NCBI GenBank assembly: GCA_046704725.1
Contig: JBJKRI010000006.1
Coordinates: 128,001 to 192,000, forward strand
Source: Candidatus Woesearchaeota archaeon
GTDB taxonomy: Archaea > Nanobdellota > Nanobdellia > Woesearchaeales > SKIA01
Reading direction: 5' to 3'
Length of the DNA: 64,000 nucleotides
A model generated the notes under the pieces. It worked only from the letters and a program-made list of their open reading frames with translations, did no database searches and was not told the origin of the DNA. This document shows, one piece after another, positions 47,340-55,148 of the stretch (positions are counted from its first letter, which is position 1; each line of letters opens with the position of its first letter). Both the position numbers and the translations under genes were made by a program.

Positions 47340-48740
47340 CTACGACGAGGAAAAATCCTCCGCAGTCCAACGCGCGTAGAACGCGTCCACGGCCCGTTCC
47401 ATATAGCGCAGTCTCGCCGGACTGCCGCGTTCCGGACTCATGAAACGTTGCAGGGAGTCTTTCGGAACAGCATATATCTCCGGGCGTGAGGATCCCACCA
47501 CCTTCACGCCGACCTCTCTCAAGTACTCCAGCACGTGATGCGTATTCCGACGGACGCCCTCGAATCCATGCATGTCCTTGCTCGTGAACAGCATGAACGG
47601 TTTTCCGGAGATACTGTTGAACAGGCTTCCACGGATCTCCTCACGCATCCGCCCGTATATCGATGATTCATTGTCTAGCGCGAGCGGCAGCTCTTCCTCT
47701 GTCAGGTACAGCACGCCTTGCGGTAGAGCACCCCCAGTAACGAACCCTCCGCGCAAGCGACCTTCTCGTATTCTTGTCTCAAGCGTCGGTTTGCGGAGGG
47801 CTCCCGGAAGGGACCCGAAGTGCTTCGTGGTGACAAGAAGGACTCCTGGCGAGTACCAGCCCGGCAGGCCGTCGAGCGTTGACAGGCCTCCTTCGTACGC
47901 TCCCACAGAAGTCTCTACAGGATGGAGCTTGGGCTGGTGGCCGTTCATGGAGATGTCATCGACATCGATATGCCCTTCCCATCGGTTCACTATGCTGCGC
48001 ATCACGACGGCGTGGAGCTCCCGCACGTTGCCCGGCCACGCCTCATTTTTGAGTCGCTCCACCGCCGCTTCGGTGAAGCCGAGGGTCTTCGCCTCGAAAT
48101 GGCTGCGCGTGCGTGCATGGAGATATGCCACGATCTCCGGAATATCATCCGGTCGCTCGCGCAATGGCGGGACGATGATCTCGTACTGCGCGATGCGATG
48201 GAAGAGGTCCCGACGGAATCCGTCCTCGAACGCGTCGCGCAGCGATGCGTTGGTCGCGGAGAGCACGCGGGTGACGACCTTCTGCGGCAAGGTATCTCCG
48301 ACCGGAATGATAAGGTCCTCCTCAAGGAAGCGCAGGAGCTTTGGTTGGAGCTGGGGCGGCATGTCGCCTATCTCATCGAGGAACAACGTCCCTCCTTCAG
48401 CTGCCTTCACGAAGCCCTTGCTGTCCGAGCTCGCCCCGGTGAACGCGCCCTTGCGGTGCCCGAACAGCGTCGACTCCGCAAGATCCAGAGGGAGGGCCGA
48501 GCAATTCACGGCGACGTACGGATTCATGGCGTTGGGACCGAGATGATGGAGGGCACGGGCGACGAGCTCCTTGCCGACGCCAGTCTCTCCCTGGATGAGC
48601 ACACGGATGTCGAGCTGTGCCAGGCGGCGTATCTGTTCATAGAGCGTCTGCATCGGTGCGGAAGAGCCGATAATCCGAAAATCGGTTCCGGGAATCTGCA
48701 AGGACCGCATGATTCCACGAGTCAATAGTGACGTATTCAA
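47340..48740 (-). CDS. Sigma54-interaction (bEBP-type) AAA+ ATPase with unrecognised C-terminal domain
   Basis: GETGVGKE, ESTLFGHRKGAFTGA, GTLFLDEIG, FRRDLFHR, WPGNVREL. Confidence 0.88.
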   Translation of the reverse strand: MNTSLLTRGIMRSLQIPGTDFRIIGSSAPMQTLYEQIRRLAQLDIRVLIQGETGVGKELVARALHHLGPNAMNPYVAVNCSALPLDLAESTLFGHRKGAFTGASSDSKGFVKAAEGGTLFLDEIGDMPPQLQPKLLRFLEEDLIIPVGDTLPQKVVTRVLSATNASLRDAFEDGFRRDLFHRIAQYEIIVPPLRERPDDIPEIVAYLHARTRSHFEAKTLGFTEAAVERLKNEAWPGNVRELHAVVMRSIVNRWEGHIDVDDISMNGHQPKLHPVETSVGAYEGGLSTLDGLPGWYSPGVLLVTTKHFGSLPGALRKPTLETRIREGRLRGGFVTGGALPQGVLYLTEEELPLALDNESSIYGRMREEIRGSLFNSISGKPFMLFTSKDMHGFEGVRRNTHHVLEYLREVGVKVVGSSRPEIYAVPKDSLQRFMSPERGSPARLRYMERAVDAFYARWTAEDFSSS

Positions 48741-49151: not shown

Positions 49152-49243
49152 GTCCAGGCGAGCGGATACTTAAACGTTGGGCGGACCGGAACACGACAGG
49201 CTGCTCGCACAAACATCTTAAGCACGGGGTCGCTCCCAGCCTC

Positions 49244-49388
49244 ATGCCCAGAAACACGGTCTTCTCGCTCAAAGCGCCACAAGCCGGCGGGCGGGCAGCC
49301 CGAAGCCATCAAGGAGCTGCTGGACGGCTACAAGAAGCAGCAGAAGCAGACCCTGCTCGGCGTGACCGGATCAGGCAAGACATTCTTC
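49244..49388 (+). pseudogene. Frameshifted, truncated copy of the uvrB 5' end
   Basis: Nucleotide match to 53226-53352 with a 2-nt deletion (GCGCC--ACAAG vs GCGCCGTACAAA); similarity ends just after GSGKTF. Confidence 0.85.
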
Positions 49389-49467
49389 TTGACGAAGTCA
49401 AGACTATCTGTCCGAAGGACGCGGGCACTTCCGTTTTTATGCTAAAATAGCTCGGATTCCAAAATTG

Positions 49468-49526
49468 AACTAACAGACGGGTTGAGCGCGTTGTGAAACA
49501 ATACGTGCTAGTCATTTGTTAATGGC
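49468..49526. repeat. attC-like site 1
   Basis: AACTAACAGACGGGTTGAGCGCGTTGTGAAACAATACGTGCTAGTCATTTGTTAATGGC. Confidence 0.8.
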
Positions 49527-49617
49527 TTGTAAGTGATTTTTAGTGCAAGATACTCAATGAAAGCGCAAGAATTATATAATAGAAAAGGATACATTTCTGT
49601 ATCAATAGGTGATGTAA

Positions 49618-49893
49618 ATGTCTGCTATTCTAGATGCGGATCCGAAGCACTGGCCCACGCTAAACACAGTGATCATGGTAGAGCAAACAATAAACAAGCT
49701 CGACGATAGTATCGTCACTGTTCCTCAAATCAAACGCGCGTTGCCACGAAAAGTCAACCATAATACCCTCAAACTCATCCTCAAGTACTTAGAGGAAAGT
49801 AACAAGATCGCCGTAAGCATAGATGGAATTACCTGGATCCACAATCAGAATCAAAAGCTACAACGAGCGATTCAATCAGGTTTAGAGCTGTGA
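49618..49893 (+). CDS. Cassette 1 putative antitoxin (winged-helix-like)
   Basis: 91 aa; GTGA overlap with a RelE-like gene. Confidence 0.6.
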   Translation: MSAILDADPKHWPTLNTVIMVEQTINKLDDSIVTVPQIKRALPRKVNHNTLKLILKYLEESNKIAVSIDGITWIHNQNQKLQRAIQSGLEL

Positions 49894-50243
49894 AACGAGC
49901 ACGCATTATTTTATCTCCAGAAGCAGAAGAGGTCTACAACTATCTGAACAAAGAGGCAAGCAAGTCAAAAACAGAGCGCGCAATACTGAATGCCTTCAAC
50001 AAGAAAAAAGATCTGATCAAGAACAACATCCACTATGGTGAACCGATCGCAAAAAGCAAAATTCCTGAGGCGTACAAGAAATCGTATGGAGTGACGAATT
50101 TATTCTGGGTAGACTTGCCGGATGCGTGGAGGATGCTGTATACGCTGACAAACGATGAATCTCAGATTGAGATTATCGCATTTGTGCTGGATATCTTCGA
50201 TCACAAAGCATACGAGAAAAAAATGGGATACAAGAAGAGCTAA
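49890..50243 (+). CDS. Cassette 1 putative RelE-like toxin
   Basis: Basic protein; NLFWVDLPDAWRMLYTL...DHKAYEKKMGY. Confidence 0.6.
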   Translation: MKRARIILSPEAEEVYNYLNKEASKSKTERAILNAFNKKKDLIKNNIHYGEPIAKSKIPEAYKKSYGVTNLFWVDLPDAWRMLYTLTNDESQIEIIAFVLDIFDHKAYEKKMGYKKS

Positions 50244-50280
50244 TCATTGCCAACCTTGCAACTTCTGAAAATCACGTATT

Positions 50281-50339
50281 GCCACTAACATACGGGTTGA
50301 GCGCGTCCTGATAGGATGCGTGCTAGTCGTTGTTATGGG
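50281..50339. repeat. attC-like site 2
   Basis: GCCACTAACATACGGGTTGAGCGCGTCCTGATAGGATGCGTGCTAGTCGTTGTTATGGG. Confidence 0.85.
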
Positions 50340-50417
50340 TTGCTGCCGATATGCCAGGCGCAGTCTTTGAATTTCGCGAATTGATACTATTATAAAGGAG
50401 GAACATACTGTGTTAAC

Positions 50418-50864
50418 ATGGATTTTGCGTACGAAGGAGATTACACCTACGGTCACACTCGGGGCACCACGAAAGGTTATGTTCGGCTCGGAGAAGCGGG
50501 AAAGCTTGTTGGCATTGTACGAGATGACGGAGGGCAACGAAAGTTCCTCGTCGGCCATCACACAGACAACAGAGTAGAATTCTTCAAAATTCCCGAACTG
50601 CCACTCAGCGTTCGCTCTTTAGGATACAGCGCAAAAGGAACTCCAGACTCCAGCTACGATGCGCAGTGGGGAGTCATCCCCGTATTTTCAGACGTAGCAG
50701 TTTCATGGAGCAATGTACTCTTTGATCTTCGAGATGTGGAATCAGACCGAGACCTTGATTTCTTGGATGCAGTGGACTTGGATGACATTGTTCGCGCGTC
50801 CGAACAAATAGCTGAAGTCAATCCATCCACAGATACTGCATCTTTCCGACTTAATCCACTATAA
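50418..50864 (+). CDS. Cassette 2 hypothetical protein
   Basis: Single ORF between sites 2 and 3; TTATAAA upstream. Confidence 0.65.
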   Translation: MDFAYEGDYTYGHTRGTTKGYVRLGEAGKLVGIVRDDGGQRKFLVGHHTDNRVEFFKIPELPLSVRSLGYSAKGTPDSSYDAQWGVIPVFSDVAVSWSNVLFDLRDVESDRDLDFLDAVDLDDIVRASEQIAEVNPSTDTASFRLNPL

Positions 50865-50936
50865 ACCCCATTTTCAATCGTGTTCGTCATGGAGTCAAAT
50901 GAAGTGCCTGAACTCCTGAAAGCATATCTGCATTTT

Positions 50937-50994
50937 CCCATAACATACGGGTTGAGCGAGTCGCTTGCGATGCGTGCTAGTCATTGTTAATGGC
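50937..50994. repeat. attC-like site 3
   Basis: CCCATAACATACGGGTTGAGCGAGTCGCTTGCGATGCGTGCTAGTCATTGTTAATGGC. Confidence 0.85.
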
Positions 50995-51104
50995 TGTCGT
51001 ATTGAACGTGCGCGGAGGTGCGGAGAGGCCCAAGAACACAATGTTCCCATTAAATAGTAGTTAGTTACCGGTATGTTTATAAGTACTGTTTTCTTTCCTC
51101 CTGT

Positions 51105-51596
51105 ATGTCGCTATTAGAGGAGTTAGTAGCTGAATACGCCCTTGATATCGATGGTGTTATTCTAGAGGATGTGGTACAGAAGCGATACTCCACACTCATC
51201 CAGAACGGATCGATAGACGCCATGACCTCGCTACGCGAAGCAACAGGAATCAACCCTGCAGAGGAGGTGGTACAGAACGGATACTCCACACTCATCCAGA
51301 ACGGATGGATAGACGACATGACCTCGCTACGCGAAGCAACAGGAATCAACCCTGCAGAGGAGGTGGTACAGAACAGATACTCCACACTCATCCAGAACGG
51401 ATGGATAGACGACATGACCTCGCTACGCGAAGCAACAGGAATCAACCCCAAGGTCCCAGAGGATGTGATACAGAACAGATACTCCACACTCATCCAGAAC
51501 GGATGGATAGACGACATGACCTCGCTACGCGAAGCAACAGGAATCATGCCGAATGAAGAGAATGCAAGAGCGTACGTCGCGCATCTCATGGAATAA
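51105..51596 (+). CDS. Cassette 3 tandem-repeat protein
   Basis: Four ~32-aa repeats of EEVVQNRYSTLIQNGWIDDMTSLREATGINP. Confidence 0.7.
   Translation: MSLLEELVAEYALDIDGVILEDVVQKRYSTLIQNGSIDAMTSLREATGINPAEEVVQNGYSTLIQNGWIDDMTSLREATGINPAEEVVQNRYSTLIQNGWIDDMTSLREATGINPKVPEDVIQNRYSTLIQNGWIDDMTSLREATGIMPNEENARAYVAHLME
51165..51546 (+). repeat. Intragenic tandem repeat, four copies of ~96 nt
   Basis: Units start at 51165, 51261, 51357 and 51459. Confidence 0.9.
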
Positions 51597-51630
51597 CTGT
51601 TACCCGCAAAAACGCACGAACACACGTATT

Positions 51631-51689
51631 GCCACTAACATACGGGTTGAGCGCGTCCTGATAGGATGCGTGCTAGTCGTTGTTAGTTG
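51631..51689. repeat. attC-like site 4
   Basis: Core identical to site 2; ends GTTAGTTG. Confidence 0.85.
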
Positions 51690-51765
51690 GTGTTGCTCTC
51701 GATAATTCTTCAATTTTTTCGTGTGAATCAATTTGATTTATATACTGTCTTTGCGTTGAGCCACT

Positions 51766-52203
51766 ATGATTATCCGTACTGCCACAATTGATGATTGTGT
51801 TGCTTGCGAATCCCTTAGTAAGATTCCTGAATTGTTAACTCCAGAAGGTCAGCACGTTGTCAAGGAGTACTTCGAAGTGCTAGTGGATGATGATGAATTG
51901 TTTATTGTAGCGGAAGAGCAACAGCAGATTGTCGGATATGTTGTTGGCGAGCCCATGAAAGCTAATCAAGCATTCATCAGTCTGTTGGTAGTTGATCCAC
52001 ACTTTCGGCGAAGAGGTATTGCGAAACAACTACTTGATGAATTTAGAACCCGCTGCGATACTAAAGGACTGAGATACATTTCATTATTCGCTCCTTCGTT
52101 CAATGAAGCAACGCTTGAATTCTACACAAAAGCAGGTTTCACTCGCGGAGAATCCTACATCTTGTTCAGCGAAAGCAGAATGCCCGATACCGAACAAAGG
52201 TGA
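51766..52203 (+). CDS. Cassette 4 GNAT acetyltransferase
   Basis: IRTAT.DD, VDPHFRRRGIAKQL, N.A..FY.K.GF. Confidence 0.88.
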   Translation: MIIRTATIDDCVACESLSKIPELLTPEGQHVVKEYFEVLVDDDELFIVAEEQQQIVGYVVGEPMKANQAFISLLVVDPHFRRRGIAKQLLDEFRTRCDTKGLRYISLFAPSFNEATLEFYTKAGFTRGESYILFSESRMPDTEQR

Positions 52204-52236
52204 AGGTCTTTGAGAGGTTTTCTGAAAGCACAATGA

Positions 52237-52312
52237 CAACTAACATACGTTATGGCGGACGCTTTGCGCCCGCGAACCATGGATGTTAGGCCTAACCGGA
52301 GACATTCCGGTT
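52237..52312. repeat. Divergent attC-like site 5 plus candidate attI
   Basis: CAACTAACAT...ATGTTAGG hairpin with similar spacing, then GTTAGG|CCTAAC and AACCGGA-GACAT-TCCGGTT. Confidence 0.6.
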
Positions 52313-52355
52313 TTATCCACAATGAACTATTGAAGTTTGTTTCGAGCGGTGGAGC

Positions 52356-53195
52356 ATGGTTACAGAGGACGTCGAGCGCCGTCTGCTTAAGCAACTGGAG
52401 GATATCTGCGCTCTCAAGGGCCTAAGCGGCCAGACTGTCCGTGCGTACTCCTCAGTCCTGGCTCAGTATTTTGCGTATCTTCGACACAAGGAGACAAAAC
52501 TCGGCCATGAAAGTGTGAAAGACTACTTGCTAACGCGTAAGGTCAACCCGAATTCGTTGCGCCTGCACCGCGCGGCGCTGCAGTTCCTCTTCACCCACAT
52601 CCTGGACAGCCCGTTCTCCTTCAATCAGATACCGATCAAGAAAAGGCCAAAACAGCTCCCCAAGGCGCTCAGCAGGCAAGCGGTCAAGACGATGATCGAC
52701 TCGACAGAGAACCCCAAGCACAAGCTCATCGTGCAACTGCTCTATTCCTGCGGCCTCCGACTGTCGGAACTGGTCAATCTCCGACGGGACGACATCGATT
52801 TCGACCGCGGACTGGTCCATGTCAGGAAGGGCAAAGGCAGCAAGGATCGCTACACCACGATCTCGCAGTCCCTGCAGTCAGCTCTCCTCCGATACTACGC
52901 CACGAACACCTTCGCCACCCCCTATATCCTCGAAGGAAGGAATGGCAAGTACTCGAAGAAATCGGTGCAGAAGGTCGTCGAGCAGGCAGGCAAGCGCGCG
53001 GCCGTTAAAGCCACGCCCCACACGCTGCGCCACTCGTTCGCCACACACCTCTTGGAGGCGGGCGTCTCTTTACGCCATATCCAGCAGCTCCTCGGCCACG
53101 CGAGCCTTGACACGACCCAGGTCTACACCCACATCGCGAACAGCGACATCGCCGCGATCCCAAATCCATTGGACCGTCTCGAACGCAACGCCTAA
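52356..53195 (+). CDS. Tyrosine recombinase/integrase (XerD/IntI-like)
   Basis: SAM-like N-terminus; YSCGLRLSE, KGKGSKDR, HTLRHSFATH, LLGH..L.TTQVY. Confidence 0.93.
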   Translation: MVTEDVERRLLKQLEDICALKGLSGQTVRAYSSVLAQYFAYLRHKETKLGHESVKDYLLTRKVNPNSLRLHRAALQFLFTHILDSPFSFNQIPIKKRPKQLPKALSRQAVKTMIDSTENPKHKLIVQLLYSCGLRLSELVNLRRDDIDFDRGLVHVRKGKGSKDRYTTISQSLQSALLRYYATNTFATPYILEGRNGKYSKKSVQKVVEQAGKRAAVKATPHTLRHSFATHLLEAGVSLRHIQQLLGHASLDTTQVYTHIANSDIAAIPNPLDRLERNA

Positions 53196-53219
53196 AACCC
53201 GCGCCCCATTCTCACCCAC

Positions 53220-55148
53220 ATGCCATTCTCGCTCAAAGCGCCGTACAAACCGGCGGGCGGACAGCCCGAAGCCATCAAGGAGCTGCTGGAGGGCTACAAG
53301 AAGCAGGAGAAGCAGACCCTGCTCGGGGTGACCGGCAGCGGCAAGACCTTCCTGATGGCGAACGTCATCCAGGCGCTGGGCAAGAAGACATTGGTGCTCG
53401 CGCACAACAAGACGCTCGCCGCGCAACTGTGGAGCGAACTGCGCGAACTGTTCCCCGAAAACGCCGTGGAGTACTTCGTGAGCTACTACGACTATTACCA
53501 GCCGGAATCCTACCTGCCGCAGACGGACACCTATATCGAGAAGGACAGCAGCAAGAACGACGTGATCGACGCGTTGCGCTTGCGCGCGACGGCCAACCTC
53601 TTGTCGCGCGACGACGTCATCGTCGTGGCGTCCGTGTCGTGCATCTACGGCTTGGGGGACCCGGAGGACTGGGAGGAACTGAGCCTGCATATCGAGAGAG
53701 GAGAGAGCATGAATAGGCAAGGGCTCATCAAGGGCCTTGTGGACATGCAGTACGAGCGAAACGACACGCAGCCCCAGCGCGGACAGTTCCGCGTGACAGG
53801 CGACACGGTCGAGGTCGTGCCGGGATACCAGGACGAGCACGTGCGCATCGAATTGTTCGGCGACGAGGTCGAACGCATCAGCATCAGGCACCACGTCACG
53901 GGAGAGGAGATCGAGCGCGCCGAGCGCATCGTCTTGTTCCCGGCAAAGCATTTCGTGACGACAGAGGAGAAGCAAGAGCGCGCCATCGCGGGCATCAAGG
54001 AGGAGCTGGAGGGGTACTTGCCCACGCTCGGACCGCTCGAGCACGAGCGCCTGGAGCGGCGCACGAGGTTCGACCTGGAGATGATCGAGGAACTGGGGTA
54101 CTGCAACGGCATCGAGAACTACAGCAGGCACTTCTCCGGGCGCAAGGAAGGGCAGCCGCCGCACACCCTCTTGGACTTCTTCGGGAAGGACTGGCTGCTC
54201 ATCGTGGACGAGAGCCACCAGACATTGCCGCAGGTGCACGCCATGGCGCACGGCGACCGCAGCCGCAAGGAGCCGCTCGTGGAGTACGGCTTCCGGCTGC
54301 CCAGCGCTTTCGACAACCGGCCGTTGACCTTCGAGGAGTTCGAGGGCCGCATGCCGACAACAATGTTCGTCTCCGCGACGCCGGGCGAGTACGAGACCAA
54401 GACGAGCGGCAACCTCGTGGAATGCGTCATCCGGCCGACAGGGCTCTTGGACCCCCACATCACCGTCAAGCCCACGAAAGGGCAGATAGACGACCTCATC
54501 AGCGAGGTGCACAAGACCGTCGAGGACGGGAACAAGGTCTTGGTGACCACGCTCACCAAGAAGATGTCGGAGGATCTGACGAACTACCTCGCGCGGCGCG
54601 ACATCCGGGTGCGCTACCTGCACAGCGAGATCGAGACGCTCGAACGCACGGAGCTCATCCGGCAATTGCGGGCGGACGAGATCGACTGCATCGTCGGCAT
54701 CAACCTGTTACGGGAAGGGCTCGACATCCCCGAAGTGTCGTTGGTGGCAATCCTGGATGCGGACAAGGAAGGCTTCCTGCGCAACGAACGGTCTCTCTTG
54801 CAGACCATCGGCCGGGCCTCGCGCAACAAGGACGGGCGCGTCATCATGTACGCGGACAAGACGACGGACTCGATGCGGCGCGCCATCACCATAACGCACG
54901 AGCGCCGTGCATTGCAGGAGAAGTACAACACAGAGCACGGCATCACGCCCAAGACCATCGTCAAGGCGGTGCCCGAGCAGCGCGTGGCCATGAAGGACAC
55001 CAAGCACATCCCAGACGCTGATGTGGAGAAGACGATCGAATCCTTGCGCGAGGAGATGGCCGCGGCGGCCGAGCAGTTGAACTTCGAGCTCGCCATCGAG
55101 ATACGCGACCGCATCAAGGAACTGGAGAAACGGCTGGAGAAGCGATAG
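53220..55148 (+). CDS. uvrB: Excinuclease ABC subunit B
   Basis: GVTGSGKT, FVSYYDYYQPE, DESH, GINLLREGLD, C-terminal UVR domain. Confidence 0.97.
   Translation: MPFSLKAPYKPAGGQPEAIKELLEGYKKQEKQTLLGVTGSGKTFLMANVIQALGKKTLVLAHNKTLAAQLWSELRELFPENAVEYFVSYYDYYQPESYLPQTDTYIEKDSSKNDVIDALRLRATANLLSRDDVIVVASVSCIYGLGDPEDWEELSLHIERGESMNRQGLIKGLVDMQYERNDTQPQRGQFRVTGDTVEVVPGYQDEHVRIELFGDEVERISIRHHVTGEEIERAERIVLFPAKHFVTTEEKQERAIAGIKEELEGYLPTLGPLEHERLERRTRFDLEMIEELGYCNGIENYSRHFSGRKEGQPPHTLLDFFGKDWLLIVDESHQTLPQVHAMAHGDRSRKEPLVEYGFRLPSAFDNRPLTFEEFEGRMPTTMFVSATPGEYETKTSGNLVECVIRPTGLLDPHITVKPTKGQIDDLISEVHKTVEDGNKVLVTTLTKKMSEDLTNYLARRDIRVRYLHSEIETLERTELIRQLRADEIDCIVGINLLREGLDIPEVSLVAILDADKEGFLRNERSLLQTIGRASRNKDGRVIMYADKTTDSMRRAITITHERRALQEKYNTEHGITPKTIVKAVPEQRVAMKDTKHIPDADVEKTIESLREEMAAAAEQLNFELAIEIRDRIKELEKRLEKR

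What the first reader, a model, noticed from the sequence alone, without database searches (positions are those of the whole stretch)
49518..52244. Each cassette's two ends are reverse complements, marking the crossover point
Seen: cassette 1 has GTTAATGGC(49518)...GCCACTAAC(50281), one mismatch. Cassette 2 has GTTATGGG(50332)...CCCATAAC(50937), exact. Cassette 3 has GTTAATGGC(50986)...GCCACTAAC(51631), one mismatch. Cassette 4 has GTTAGTTG(51682)...CAACTAAC(52237), exact. The flanks match within a cassette, not across a site. Established: integron cassettes show this pattern because the full hairpin is restored in the excised circle. Inference: these units were inserted as circles with crossover at the GTT/AAC core.
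Basis: partly seen in the sequence, partly recalled or inferred. Interest (0 to 1): 0.8.

Follow-up and report, generated by a model that had tools for sequence, protein, structure and literature searches.

The report
Archaeal cassette ends pair as hairpins
In a tiny DPANN archaeon, four imported gene cassettes each carry matching (reverse-complement) ends, as integron cassettes do, but the neighbouring recombinase is a plain Xer-type enzyme, so this looks like an integron-like gene-capture system built on a different enzyme.

Summary
Each of the four low-GC cassettes (49518-52244) begins with GTTA+N4-5 and ends with the complementary N4-5+TAAC. In three of the four, the complementarity runs about 25-35 nt further.

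In related arrays from other Woesearchaeota-type genomes and metagenomes, the 4-nt "barcode" next to the core matched perfectly within the cassette in 21 of 36 intervals. The controls gave 3 of 48 across one site and 98 of 2892 for unrelated pairs.

The array lies upstream of, and on the same strand as, a 279-aa XerA-like tyrosine recombinase that lacks the IntI-specific insertion. A conserved hairpin sits just before that gene.

My reading is an integron-like system with folded single-strand sites, circular cassette intermediates and a crossover at the AAC/GTT core. The crossover is more likely at the AAC on the left of each hairpin, which gives the canonical integron topology. No circle was seen, because no reads were available.

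The end-complementarity rule is textbook integron biology. The Xer-type setting is a new variant, and this scan already flagged it on this window (e1-6888233).

The parts
49239..49396 (+). Decayed duplicate of the 5' end of uvrB (left boundary of the whole platform)
   Evidence: Direct repeats D3 and D7 (118 nt at 88% and 40 nt at 75% to 53203-53362). The alignment shows a 2-nt deletion in this copy.
49386..49462 (+). Cassette-3'-end-like element with two GAA-triloop hairpins and an oligo-T run. Homologous elements precede sites in other arrays.
   Evidence: Hairpins at 49388-49402 and about 49410-49420. The same CTTGACGAAGTCAAG...hairpin motif lies left of sites in L009, L058, L065, L139 and L044.
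49463..49521 (+). Site 0: ATTG-AAC-TAAC, hairpin, GTTA (TAAC 49471-49474, GTTA 49518-49521)
   Evidence: (D2, D4, D5)
49518..50289 (+). It holds two overlapping ORFs, 49618-49893 (91 aa) and 49890-50243 (117 aa, RelE/ParE-like lead).
50286..50335 (+). Site 1: TAAC...GTTA hairpin, identical to site 3
50332..50944 (+). Cassette 2, ORF 50418-50864 (148 aa, no family hit)
50941..50989 (+). Site 2: TAAC...GTTA hairpin
50986..51639 (+). Cassette 3, ORF 51105-51596 (163 aa, four tandem 32-aa repeats)
   Evidence: (D1)
51636..51685 (+). Site 3: TAAC...GTTA hairpin
51682..52244 (+). Cassette 4, ORF 51766-52203 (145 aa GNAT acetyltransferase)
   Evidence: PF00583, 64 bits
52241..52296 (+). Recombinase-proximal hairpin (candidate attI equivalent): TAAC-ATACGTTATGG...CCATGGAT-GTTAGGCC, ending in the 12-bp palindrome GTTAGGCCTAAC
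   Evidence: Homologous TAAC-AYNTATTA hairpins lie 85-235 nt before the recombinase gene in other genomes.
52356..53195 (+). 279-aa XerA-like tyrosine recombinase lacking the IntI-specific insertion
   Evidence: NF040815 XerA_Arch scores 219.2 bits (cut-off 220). TIGR02249 IntI scores 190 bits (cut-off 265) in two stretches. Against VchIntIA 2A3V, residues 21-177 align to 16-177 and 203-275 to 246-320. Genome hits to the IntI model skip profile positions 178-238.
53203..55148 (+). Intact uvrB (ORF 53220-55148). Its first ~160 nt are the right-hand copy of the flanking duplication.
   Evidence: 984 bits, NF003673

Best explanation
This is an integron-like gene-cassette array of a Woesearchaeota-type (DPANN) archaeon.

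Anatomy. Four imported cassettes (GC 0.40-0.52 in a 0.62 genome) are separated by ~50-nt hairpin sites of the form (ATTG)-N4-TAAC-hairpin-GTTA-N4. The array ends at a distinct, conserved hairpin about 70 nt before a XerA-family tyrosine recombinase on the same strand.

Why the ends match. The N4(-5) next to TAAC at a cassette's end is complementary to the N4(-5) after GTTA at that cassette's start. When the cassette is a free circle, its two ends come together around one hairpin and complete an 8-9 bp (here up to ~35 bp) outer helix. This is the counterpart of the integron R box (RYYYAAC/GTTRRRY). In the array, each site has flanks from two different cassettes, so they do not match.

Crossover. 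Recombination therefore crosses over in or next to the invariant AAC/GTT triplet of a folded single strand. Cassettes move as circles, and the recombinase-proximal hairpin is the docking site.

What is shown and what is inferred.
- Shown: the complementarity, its generality in the family, the covariation of the stems, the linkage of sites to one recombinase clade, and the absence of an IntI.
- Inferred: circles, single-strand folding, the enzyme-site relation, and the side of the crossover.
- On the side, I favour the AAC at the left of each hairpin, on the + strand, at about 0.6. That makes the layout identical to a canonical integron read along the integrase-sense strand. The differences are that the cassette genes point towards the recombinase and seem to carry their own TATA-like boxes.
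For: 1. Window: coordinates and complementarity are confirmed, and cognate flank pairs are the strongest partners.

2. Family: covariance model R1, built from 15 sites of 9 genomes, found 49 matches (E<=1) in 707 kb around clade members. 48 of the 49 lie upstream of, and on the strand of, the recombinase. It found 0 matches in 429 kb around other tyrosine recombinases.

3. Barcode test: 21 of 36 are 4/4 within a cassette, against 3 of 48 for same-site pairs and 98 of 2892 for non-cognate pairs. Core variants covary within cassettes (GATA/TATC, GTTT/AAAC).

4. Inner stem: 93.1% of cells are paired, 122 cells changed on both sides, and 0 of 500 shuffles reach this. Slid controls give 34-45% paired.

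5. Strand-specific folding: hairpins with GNA triloops number 67, against 9 of the complementary TNC, in 18.6 kb of site regions. Elsewhere in the loci the counts are 131 and 112. G.T outnumbers A.C 30 to 10 in the stem. d(GNA) triloops and GCGNAGC mini-hairpins are very stable DNA structures (abstract starts of PMC3201870 and PMC13037366, search listing).

6. Recombinase: it is XerA-like and lacks the IntI insertion. No IntI scores over the cut-off in this 99.7%-complete genome. All 120 listed homologues are 163-303 aa long.

7. Tree: in a FastTree of 106 rows, 29 of the 35 site-linked recombinases fall in one clade of 34 rows (SH-like support 94). The genome's second XerA-like paralogue falls elsewhere.

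8. Proximal hairpin: a regex finds it in 16 of 21 loci with >=205 bits and >=150 nt upstream. 18 of 20 examined fold with z<-2.

9. Left-side crossover: in G034 a 300-nt unit is duplicated in exact phase, from the base after (T)AAC/TATC to the next TATC, giving unit, unit, proximal hairpin.

10. Assembly: contigs break within 2 kb upstream of the recombinase gene in 29 of the 38 genomes with known contig length. No baseline was computed.
Against: - No circle, junction read or array variant was seen, because no sequencing run was listed.
- The IntI-specific domain, held to be needed for attC recombination (Ghaly 2022, passage read), is missing, and no Xer-type enzyme has been shown to run such a system.
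- Model R1 does not detect the window's own short sites. Their kinship with the long sites rests on shared ATTG-N4-TAACAT...TGTTA ends, on position, and on 13 identical bases with G034's sites.
- 7 of 36 intervals match only 0-2 of 4.
- Against a left-side crossover: sites 1 and 3 are identical over the 17-nt left flank plus the whole hairpin (63 nt). This is simplest if the hairpin belongs to the upstream cassette. The bulged bases also sit on the 5' arm of the + strand, whereas in canonical attC (recalled) they sit on the 3' arm of the recombining strand.
- The G.T excess may be inflated by an RNA-type model alignment and by related sequences.
- The sites in the count are not all independent.
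Confidence: 0.7

Rival explanations
1. An ordinary integron remnant (CALIN). The sites are attC sites served by a true IntI that was lost or acts from another cell or element. The XerA-like gene next door is a chromosome-dimer or island integrase that has nothing to do with the cassettes.
For: - The sites share the AAC/GTT cores and hairpin form of attC.
- Ghaly 2022 reports mostly CALINs in Archaea, Nanoarchaeota included, and shows that bacterial IntI1 recombines archaeal attCs (passages).
- The whole unit is flanked by a duplicated uvrB 5' end, as an integrated element would be.
Against: - No IntI scores over the cut-off in the 99.7%-complete genome.
- Site-recombinase adjacency, strand and order recur in 26 loci: 48 of 49 model matches, and 0 matches near other recombinases.
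- A conserved hairpin with the same TAAC boundary precedes the gene.
- Site-linked recombinases cluster on the tree, apart from the second paralogue.
Confidence: 0.1
2. Double-stranded site-specific recombination of the Xer/dif or pdif-module kind. The inverted repeats are two binding arms of a duplex core site, and modules are exchanged between duplex sites without any folded single strand.
For: - The enzyme is XerA-like, best matching P. abyssi XerA 4A8E at E 2.7e-49.
- Every site is an inverted repeat.
- Xer-bounded modules are known on Acinetobacter plasmids (recalled, no call).
Against: - Duplex crossover gives no reason for a cassette's two ends to be complementary to each other.
- Arms covary while the distance between them ranges from a few to more than 100 nt, which does not fit a fixed 6-8 bp overlap.
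- Triloops are strand-asymmetric, 67 GNA against 9 TNC.
Confidence: 0.1
3. RNA-level elements. The hairpins are transcript structures (terminators, processing stems, perhaps RNA circularisation), and the end complementarity serves the cassette transcript rather than DNA recombination.
For: - The favoured strand is the sense strand of the ORFs.
- G.T exceeds A.C, 30 to 10.
- Oligo-T runs follow some hairpins.
Against: - No Rfam family matches.
- The sites are tightly linked to one recombinase clade.
- G034 holds a phase-locked tandem unit with no ORF.
- Cassette GC is foreign to the genome.
- GNA triloops are a DNA hairpin hallmark (abstract starts only).
- Contigs break at the arrays.
Confidence: 0.06
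4. Chance resemblance or an assembly artefact of a repeated sequence.
For: Only four cassettes are in the window, and two of them share end types.
Against: In addition, the motif A[AT]T[GT]-N3-5-TAACA[TG]A occurs in the whole genome only at these five sites, all on the + strand.
Confidence: 0.01

Closest known systems
Bacterial integrons (IntI, attI, attC; class 1 and Vibrio chromosomal integrons)
   Same: - Tandem cassettes are separated by imperfect hairpin sites bounded by ...AAC and GTT...
- The few bases beyond the core are complementary within a cassette, not across a site.
- A special site and the recombinase gene sit at one end of the array. Read along the recombinase-sense strand, the order array, docking site, gene is the canonical one.
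- There is a toxin-antitoxin-like cassette (lead only).
   Different: - The recombinase lacks the IntI-specific insertion.
- The docking site is itself a hairpin.
- The window's cassette genes point towards the recombinase and have TATA-like boxes of their own (inference). No common Pc promoter is evident.
- A conserved unpaired ATTG lies 4 nt outside the core.
- In related genomes the sites are multi-hairpin structures rich in GNA triloops.
- The favoured strand is the gene-sense strand.
Archaeal integrons and CALINs of Ghaly et al. 2022 (PMC9668308; outline and passages read; supplements not opened)
   Same: Archaeal, Nanoarchaeota (DPANN) included. They are arrays of short ORFs with attC-like folding sites, and most lack a detectable IntI.
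   Different: That paper defines integron integrases by the additional domain and reports only six. It does not mention Xer-like neighbours: 'XerA' has 0 occurrences, and 'Xer' 2 occurrences, one at least for the XerC/XerD out-groups of its tree. Whether arrays like this one are among its CALINs (data S3) I could not check.
Archaeal XerA/dif chromosome-dimer resolution (P. abyssi XerA, PDB 4A8E)
   Same: It is the best sequence match, full length, E 2.7e-49. NCBIfam XerA_Arch scores 219.2 bits.
   Different: The genome has a second XerA-like gene (C4, 41% identical, 221.3 bits) that groups with recombinases having no such sites. The array-linked one has many hairpin sites beside it instead of one duplex dif.
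CTX-phage integration by XerCD at a folded single-stranded hairpin (recalled from memory; no call)
   Same: It is a precedent that a Xer-type enzyme without an IntI domain can recombine a folded single-stranded site.
   Different: That case involves one phage genome and one chromosomal dif, with no cassette array.

Membership tests
Integron (IntI + attI + attC) | Integrase of the IntI family with the IntI-specific additional domain around patch III | tested here: not met
   TIGR02249 scores 190 bits against a cut-off of 265, in two stretches. The region is about 43 residues shorter than VchIntIA between residues 177 and 203. Genome-wide hits to the IntI model skip profile positions 178-238, and none is over the cut-off.
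Integron (IntI + attI + attC) | Cassettes separated by imperfect-palindrome sites bounded by ...AAC and GTT... that fold as hairpins with bulged bases | tested here: met
   (window). (family: 93.1% paired, 122 double changes). A bulged T or TC follows TAACA. The IntegronFinder attC model itself could not be run.
Integron (IntI + attI + attC) | Bases beyond the core are complementary between the two ends of one cassette (crossover inside the core) | tested here: met
   Window. Family: 21 of 36 against 3 of 48 and 98 of 2892.
Integron (IntI + attI + attC) | A primary attachment site next to the integrase gene at one end of the array | tested here: inconclusive
   A conserved hairpin with the same TAAC boundary lies 85-235 nt before the gene. 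Its use as a docking site is inferred from position and from the G034 duplication.
Integron (IntI + attI + attC) | Promoterless cassettes read from a common promoter Pc at the integrase end | tested here: not met
   All five ORFs of the window's cassettes point towards the recombinase. A TATA-like box lies 25-40 nt before the first ORF of each of the four cassettes (read; promoter function is inferred).
Integron (IntI + attI + attC) | Excised circular cassettes and single-strand (bottom-strand) recombination | not testable with these tools
   No sequencing run was listed. Strand asymmetry of triloops (67 against 9) speaks for single-strand folding, but of the gene-sense strand.
XerA/dif chromosome-dimer resolution | Xer-type tyrosine recombinase of about 280 aa with the RHRY catalytic set | tested here: met
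   Invariant R135, H222, R225, H248 and Y257 in 32 homologues.
XerA/dif chromosome-dimer resolution | Acts on one duplex 28-bp dif site per replicon | not tested
   No dif was sought. Five hairpin sites lie next to the gene, and a second XerA-like paralogue exists.

The most novel reading that the evidence does not exclude
DPANN archaea hold a second lineage of integron-like gene-capture systems that does without IntI.
- A plain XerA-type recombinase recombines folded single-stranded sites built from DNA mini-hairpins (GNA triloops), on the gene-sense strand.
- The outer helix is a 4-nt cassette-specific barcode plus the AAC/GTT core, restored only in the excised circle.
- The docking site is also a hairpin.
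- This would explain many of the 'integrase-less' archaeal cassette arrays.
Probability: 0.55. Interest if true: 0.8.

Novelty: new variant of a known kind. Interest (0 to 1): 0.62.

Why it matters
Within-cassette end complementarity is the sequence footprint of recombination through a circular intermediate with a folded site. Finding it here, and across related arrays, is the strongest sequence-only argument that these archaeal arrays are active integron-like systems.

It also suggests that their enzyme, which lacks the domain thought indispensable for attC recognition, handles folded DNA in another way.

That makes three long-standing questions testable: how integron integrases arose from Xer-type enzymes, what the minimal requirements for hairpin recombination are, and who serves the integrase-less arrays of Archaea. 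The report supplies defined sites, a defined 279-aa enzyme and clear predictions (barcode pairing, AAC-side cleavage, strand preference).

Tried and rejected
- **Energy-based site finders.** The versions with terminal TAAC/GTTA forced or required missed sites 0 and 2 and picked wrong boundaries. I replaced them with a covariance model.
- **Model R1 on this genome.** It finds nothing in the window or in the genome itself, because the window's sites are a short variant.
- **Rfam.** No family matches the sites in the window or in G012. The only over-threshold hit is a tRNA in L053.
- **RNAalifold.** On 20 proximal sites it gave no consensus because the right arms were misaligned. I folded each site singly instead.
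- **Sequencing runs.** None was listed for 49200-52400. Circle junctions and array variants could therefore not be sought, and read laying was not used.
- **BLAST between arrays.** I hoped to find one cassette in two contexts. It returned mainly the conserved non-coding modules on both sides of the sites, which does not settle the side of the crossover.
- **Metagenome scan.** It returned mostly distant recombinases (at most 47% identity). Only some loci had sites.
- **G.T versus A.C count.** I treat it as weak evidence.
- **Literature.** Three searches found no paper linking attC-like arrays to XerA-like recombinases. Among the 15 papers listed, none holds both 'attC' and 'XerA'.
- **Earlier-findings search.** A word search failed on a slip of too many words and was not repeated.
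- **Not run.** Structure prediction and complex prediction, because they would not bear on the cassette-end question.
Full report
**1. The observation**

The region holds five sites of the form TAAC, hairpin, GTTA. The TAAC ends at 49474, 50289, 50944, 51639 and 52244. The GTTA starts at 49518, 50332, 50986, 51682 and 52285.

The sites delimit four units of 815, 655, 695 and 605 bp (spacings and the coordinates above). Because TAAC and GTTA are common to all sites, the cassette-specific signal is the 4-5 nt beyond them:
- ATGGC/GCCAC, one A-C mismatch, cassettes 1 and 3;
- TGGG/CCCA, cassette 2;
- GTTG/CAAC, cassette 4.

In a 5 x 5 matrix of flank duplex energies (40 nt per flank, DNA parameters):
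- the four within-cassette pairs score -18.2, -19.0, -19.4 and -11.1 kcal/mol;
- the two flanks of one site score -5.1 to -8.9;
- the 21 non-cognate pairs average -6.8 (sd 1.6).

With the first 8 nt kept and the outer 32 nt shuffled, 0, 1 and 1 of 300 shuffles reach the observed energy. For cassette 4 there is no such extension (128 of 300).

Joined in silico as circles, the junctions fold into one long hairpin each: -27.4, -21.6, -28.6 and -19.4 kcal/mol on the + strand. Cassettes 1 and 3 have the same end type and are not independent.

**2. Surroundings**

The four units have GC 0.40-0.52 in a genome region of about 0.62. The ORFs, all on the + strand, are:
- 91 aa and 117 aa, overlapping, in cassette 1;
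- 148 aa in cassette 2;
- 163 aa, with four 32-aa repeats, in cassette 3;
- a 145-aa GNAT acetyltransferase in cassette 4.

About 70 nt after the last site starts a 279-aa tyrosine recombinase, also on the + strand.
- Its best family is archaeal XerA (219.2 bits, cut-off 220).
- The integron-integrase model is matched below its cut-off (190 against 265) and in two pieces.
- Against the solved Vibrio IntI (2A3V), residues 21-177 and 203-275 align with 16-177 and 246-320. About 43 residues are therefore missing exactly where the IntI-specific domain lies.
- The full-length best match is P. abyssi XerA (4A8E).

The genome is 1.18 Mb in 8 contigs and 99.7% complete. It has no protein over the IntI cut-off. 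Its two XerA-like genes both skip profile positions 178-238.

Relatives of the recombinase are named Woesearchaeota, Nanoarchaeota or Diapherotrites by their sources. The five sites are the only ones in the genome.

The whole unit (array plus recombinase) lies between a decayed copy and the live copy of the first ~160 nt of uvrB.

**3. Does the rule hold in larger arrays?**

Homologues of the recombinase (E<=1e-60) occur in 40 of 401 genomes sampled from the order. In 29 of the 38 with known contig length, the contig breaks within 2 kb upstream of the gene (counted by hand, no baseline computed). That is what a repeat-rich, variable array would cause.

Where upstream DNA exists, it holds arrays of longer sites with the same ends: ATTG, N4, TAAC, ATC, stem, GAAGT, hairpin, TTTGGG, hairpin, stem', TGTTA, N4.

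I built a covariance model from 15 such sites of 9 genomes, using the outer 16 pairs only.
- It found 49 matches (E<=1) in 100 sources totalling 707 kb. 48 of them lie upstream of, and on the strand of, the recombinase.
- It found none in 48 other loci totalling 429 kb around other tyrosine recombinases.

I carried 48 of the 49 matches into the count. I dropped the 5'-truncated match in L039, then dropped the truncated L040 match, added recombinase-proximal sites by a regex, and removed two regex hits that were plainly spurious.

For the 36 intervals between neighbouring sites (4 of them from the window), I compared the 4 nt after GTTA with the 4 nt before the next TAAC:

| Comparison | 4/4 | At least 3/4 |
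|---|---|---|
| Within cassette | 21 of 36 | 29 of 36 |
| Two flanks of one site | 3 of 48 | 8 of 48 |
| Non-cognate pairs | 98 of 2892 | 429 of 2892 |

(All.) Seven intervals match only 0-2 of 4. Several of these are long (2-3 kb) and may hide undetected sites.

Where the core departs from TAAC/GTTA, it does so on both ends of the same cassette: GATA...TATC twice in G034, and GTTT...AAAC in G312. Only AAC/GTT, or less, is common property of the sites. This places the crossover there. The refutation test is passed.

**4. The sites fold, and on one strand**

The inner stem covaries strongly (the alignment is fitted to the model, which favours it):
- 93.1% of 655 cells are paired;
- 10 of the 11 pairs of the second helix change on both sides;
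- 122 cells changed on both sides, and 0 of 500 shuffles are as high;
- slid controls give 34-45% paired.

The hairpins of these regions end in GNA triloops closed by C-G or T-A far more often than in the complementary TNC: 67 against 9 in 18.6 kb of site regions, compared with 131 against 112 in the other 280 kb. Since a perfect hairpin exists on both strands, this asymmetry says the + strand (gene-sense, recombinase-sense) is the one selected to fold.

d(GNA) triloops and GCGNAGC mini-hairpins are known as exceptionally stable DNA structures. I saw only the abstract starts of PMC3201870 and PMC13037366 in the listing.

G.T outnumbers A.C 30 to 10 in the stem, which is weak evidence. In the window itself only three such triloops occur, at site 0 and just left of it.

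**5. The recombinase-proximal hairpin**

In most loci of the clade, a site of a distinct and conserved kind lies 85-235 nt before the start codon: N4-TAAC-A-YNTATTA, a variable stem and loop, then TAATA.
- A regex finds it in 20 of 33 loci with at least 150 nt upstream: 16 of 21 with >=205 bits and 4 of 12 below. Background is 0.18 per 320 nt.
- The regex misses the window, L140, L144 and L157, where I see the site by eye.
- Of 26 such sites (the window plus 25) I folded 20. I left out six that looked truncated or without a right arm. 18 of the 20 have z<-2 against shuffles.

The left barcode of this site matches the start of the last cassette like any other site (rows marked prox). The regular sites are always distal to it. 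The window's site 4 is of this kind.

**6. Which side of the hairpin is cut?**

Both sides fit the complementarity. Four things favour the AAC on the left, so that each mobile unit would be hairpin, GTTA, gene, N4-TAAC:
- the proximal hairpin stays fixed beside the gene in all genomes, as a docking site should;
- in G034 a 300-nt ORF-less unit is present twice in exact phase, from the base after the core to the next TATC, followed by the proximal hairpin. That is two whole units under this reading, but three different things under the other;
- the + strand is the folding strand, and in canonical integrons the folded strand is cut in the AAC of its 5' arm (recalled);
- read along the recombinase-sense strand, the order array, docking site, gene is then exactly that of a canonical integron.

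Two things speak against it:
- the window's sites 1 and 3 are identical over the left flank plus the hairpin (63 nt);
- the bulged bases lie on the other arm than in attC (recalled).

I put the left side at about 0.6.

**7. The enzyme clade**

16 of 123 were dropped for length outside 235-335 aa, and one duplicate of the window's gene was dropped.
- 29 of the 35 site-linked rows fall in one clade of 34 rows (SH-like support 94).
- Four of the five other rows in that clade have at most 112 nt of upstream DNA. The fifth (L052) has 971 nt and no site.
- The genome's second XerA-like gene groups with seven rows that have no sites.
- The label needs 8 changes on the tree, against 29.7 when shuffled. 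Kin share labels, so this shows clustering only.

**8. Comparison and novelty**

The end-complementarity rule and its explanation are established integron biology (recalled; the folding requirement is restated in Ghaly 2022). What differs here is:
- the enzyme, which has no IntI domain;
- a hairpin docking site;
- genes facing the recombinase, each with a TATA-like box 25-40 nt upstream (read);
- the unpaired ATTG;
- the multi-hairpin, triloop-rich sites of the relatives;
- the strand.

Ghaly et al. report archaeal integrons that are mostly without integrase. They define IntI by the additional domain and do not discuss Xer-like neighbours (supplements not opened). Three literature searches found nothing on Xer-type recombinases with attC-like arrays.

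This scan had already flagged the recombinase on this same window (e1-6888233). My tests of its claim agree with it.

**Verdict.** It is a new variant of a known kind.

Noticed in passing
window 49239-49396 and 53203-53362: The whole platform (array plus recombinase, about 3.96 kb) lies between two copies of the first ~160 nt of uvrB. They are 88% alike, and the left copy has a 2-nt deletion. This looks like an integration that duplicated or replaced the gene's 5' end. In the same-genus genome G001 the homologous recombinase also lies upstream of uvrB, with one ORF between.
   Followed up: partly
window 49618-50243: Cassette 1 holds two ORFs overlapping by 4 nt (91 aa and 117 aa). The second resembles 'putative RelE toxin' / ParE clusters of Nanobdellota and Woesearchaeota in the ESM Atlas (score 0.98, 232 of 256 features). 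Pfam and NCBIfam gave nothing. It is possibly a toxin-antitoxin cassette.
   Followed up: partly
window 51163-51553: The 163-aa ORF of cassette 3 consists largely of four tandem 96-102-nt (32-34-aa) repeats that are 91-100% alike (D1). It has no family hit.
   Followed up: no
window 49571-49580, 50388-50396, 51074-51082, 51736-51744: An A/T-rich TATA-like box (TTATATAA, TTATAAAG, TTTATAAG, TTTATATA) lies about 25-40 nt before the first start codon of each cassette. This suggests that each cassette brings its own archaeal promoter (read; not tested).
   Followed up: no
L009 7429-7588; L058 1687-1833 and 7965-8128; window 49386-49462: A conserved non-coding element of about 90-165 nt sits at the 3' end of some cassettes. 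It has two GNA-triloop hairpins, an oligo-T run and a GGGGCGGGTGGTC motif, and it ends in ATTGAAACTAAC. It is 85-89% alike between loci and stands in front of different hairpins. To the right of GTTA-N4, many sites have a further conserved two-hairpin module.
   Followed up: partly
window 52285-52296: A perfect 12-bp palindrome, GTTAGGCCTAAC, lies at the right end of the recombinase-proximal hairpin. GTTAGGC is also the classical class 1 core-site sequence (recalled).
   Followed up: no
window 47340-48740 (- strand): A 466-aa protein with a sigma-54-interaction AAA+ domain (NorR/NifA/NtrC-like, E 1e-76 to 1e-81, all below cut-offs) sits in an archaeal genome.
   Followed up: no
L053 5643-5725 (G012): A tRNA gene (Rfam 38.8 bits) and several minus-strand genes lie inside the first interval of the G012 array. 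That interval's ends do not match.
   Followed up: no
G001-G374, contig ends: In 29 of the 38 genomes with known contig length, the contig ends within 2 kb upstream of the recombinase gene. The arrays are therefore largely missing from MAGs.
   Followed up: partly
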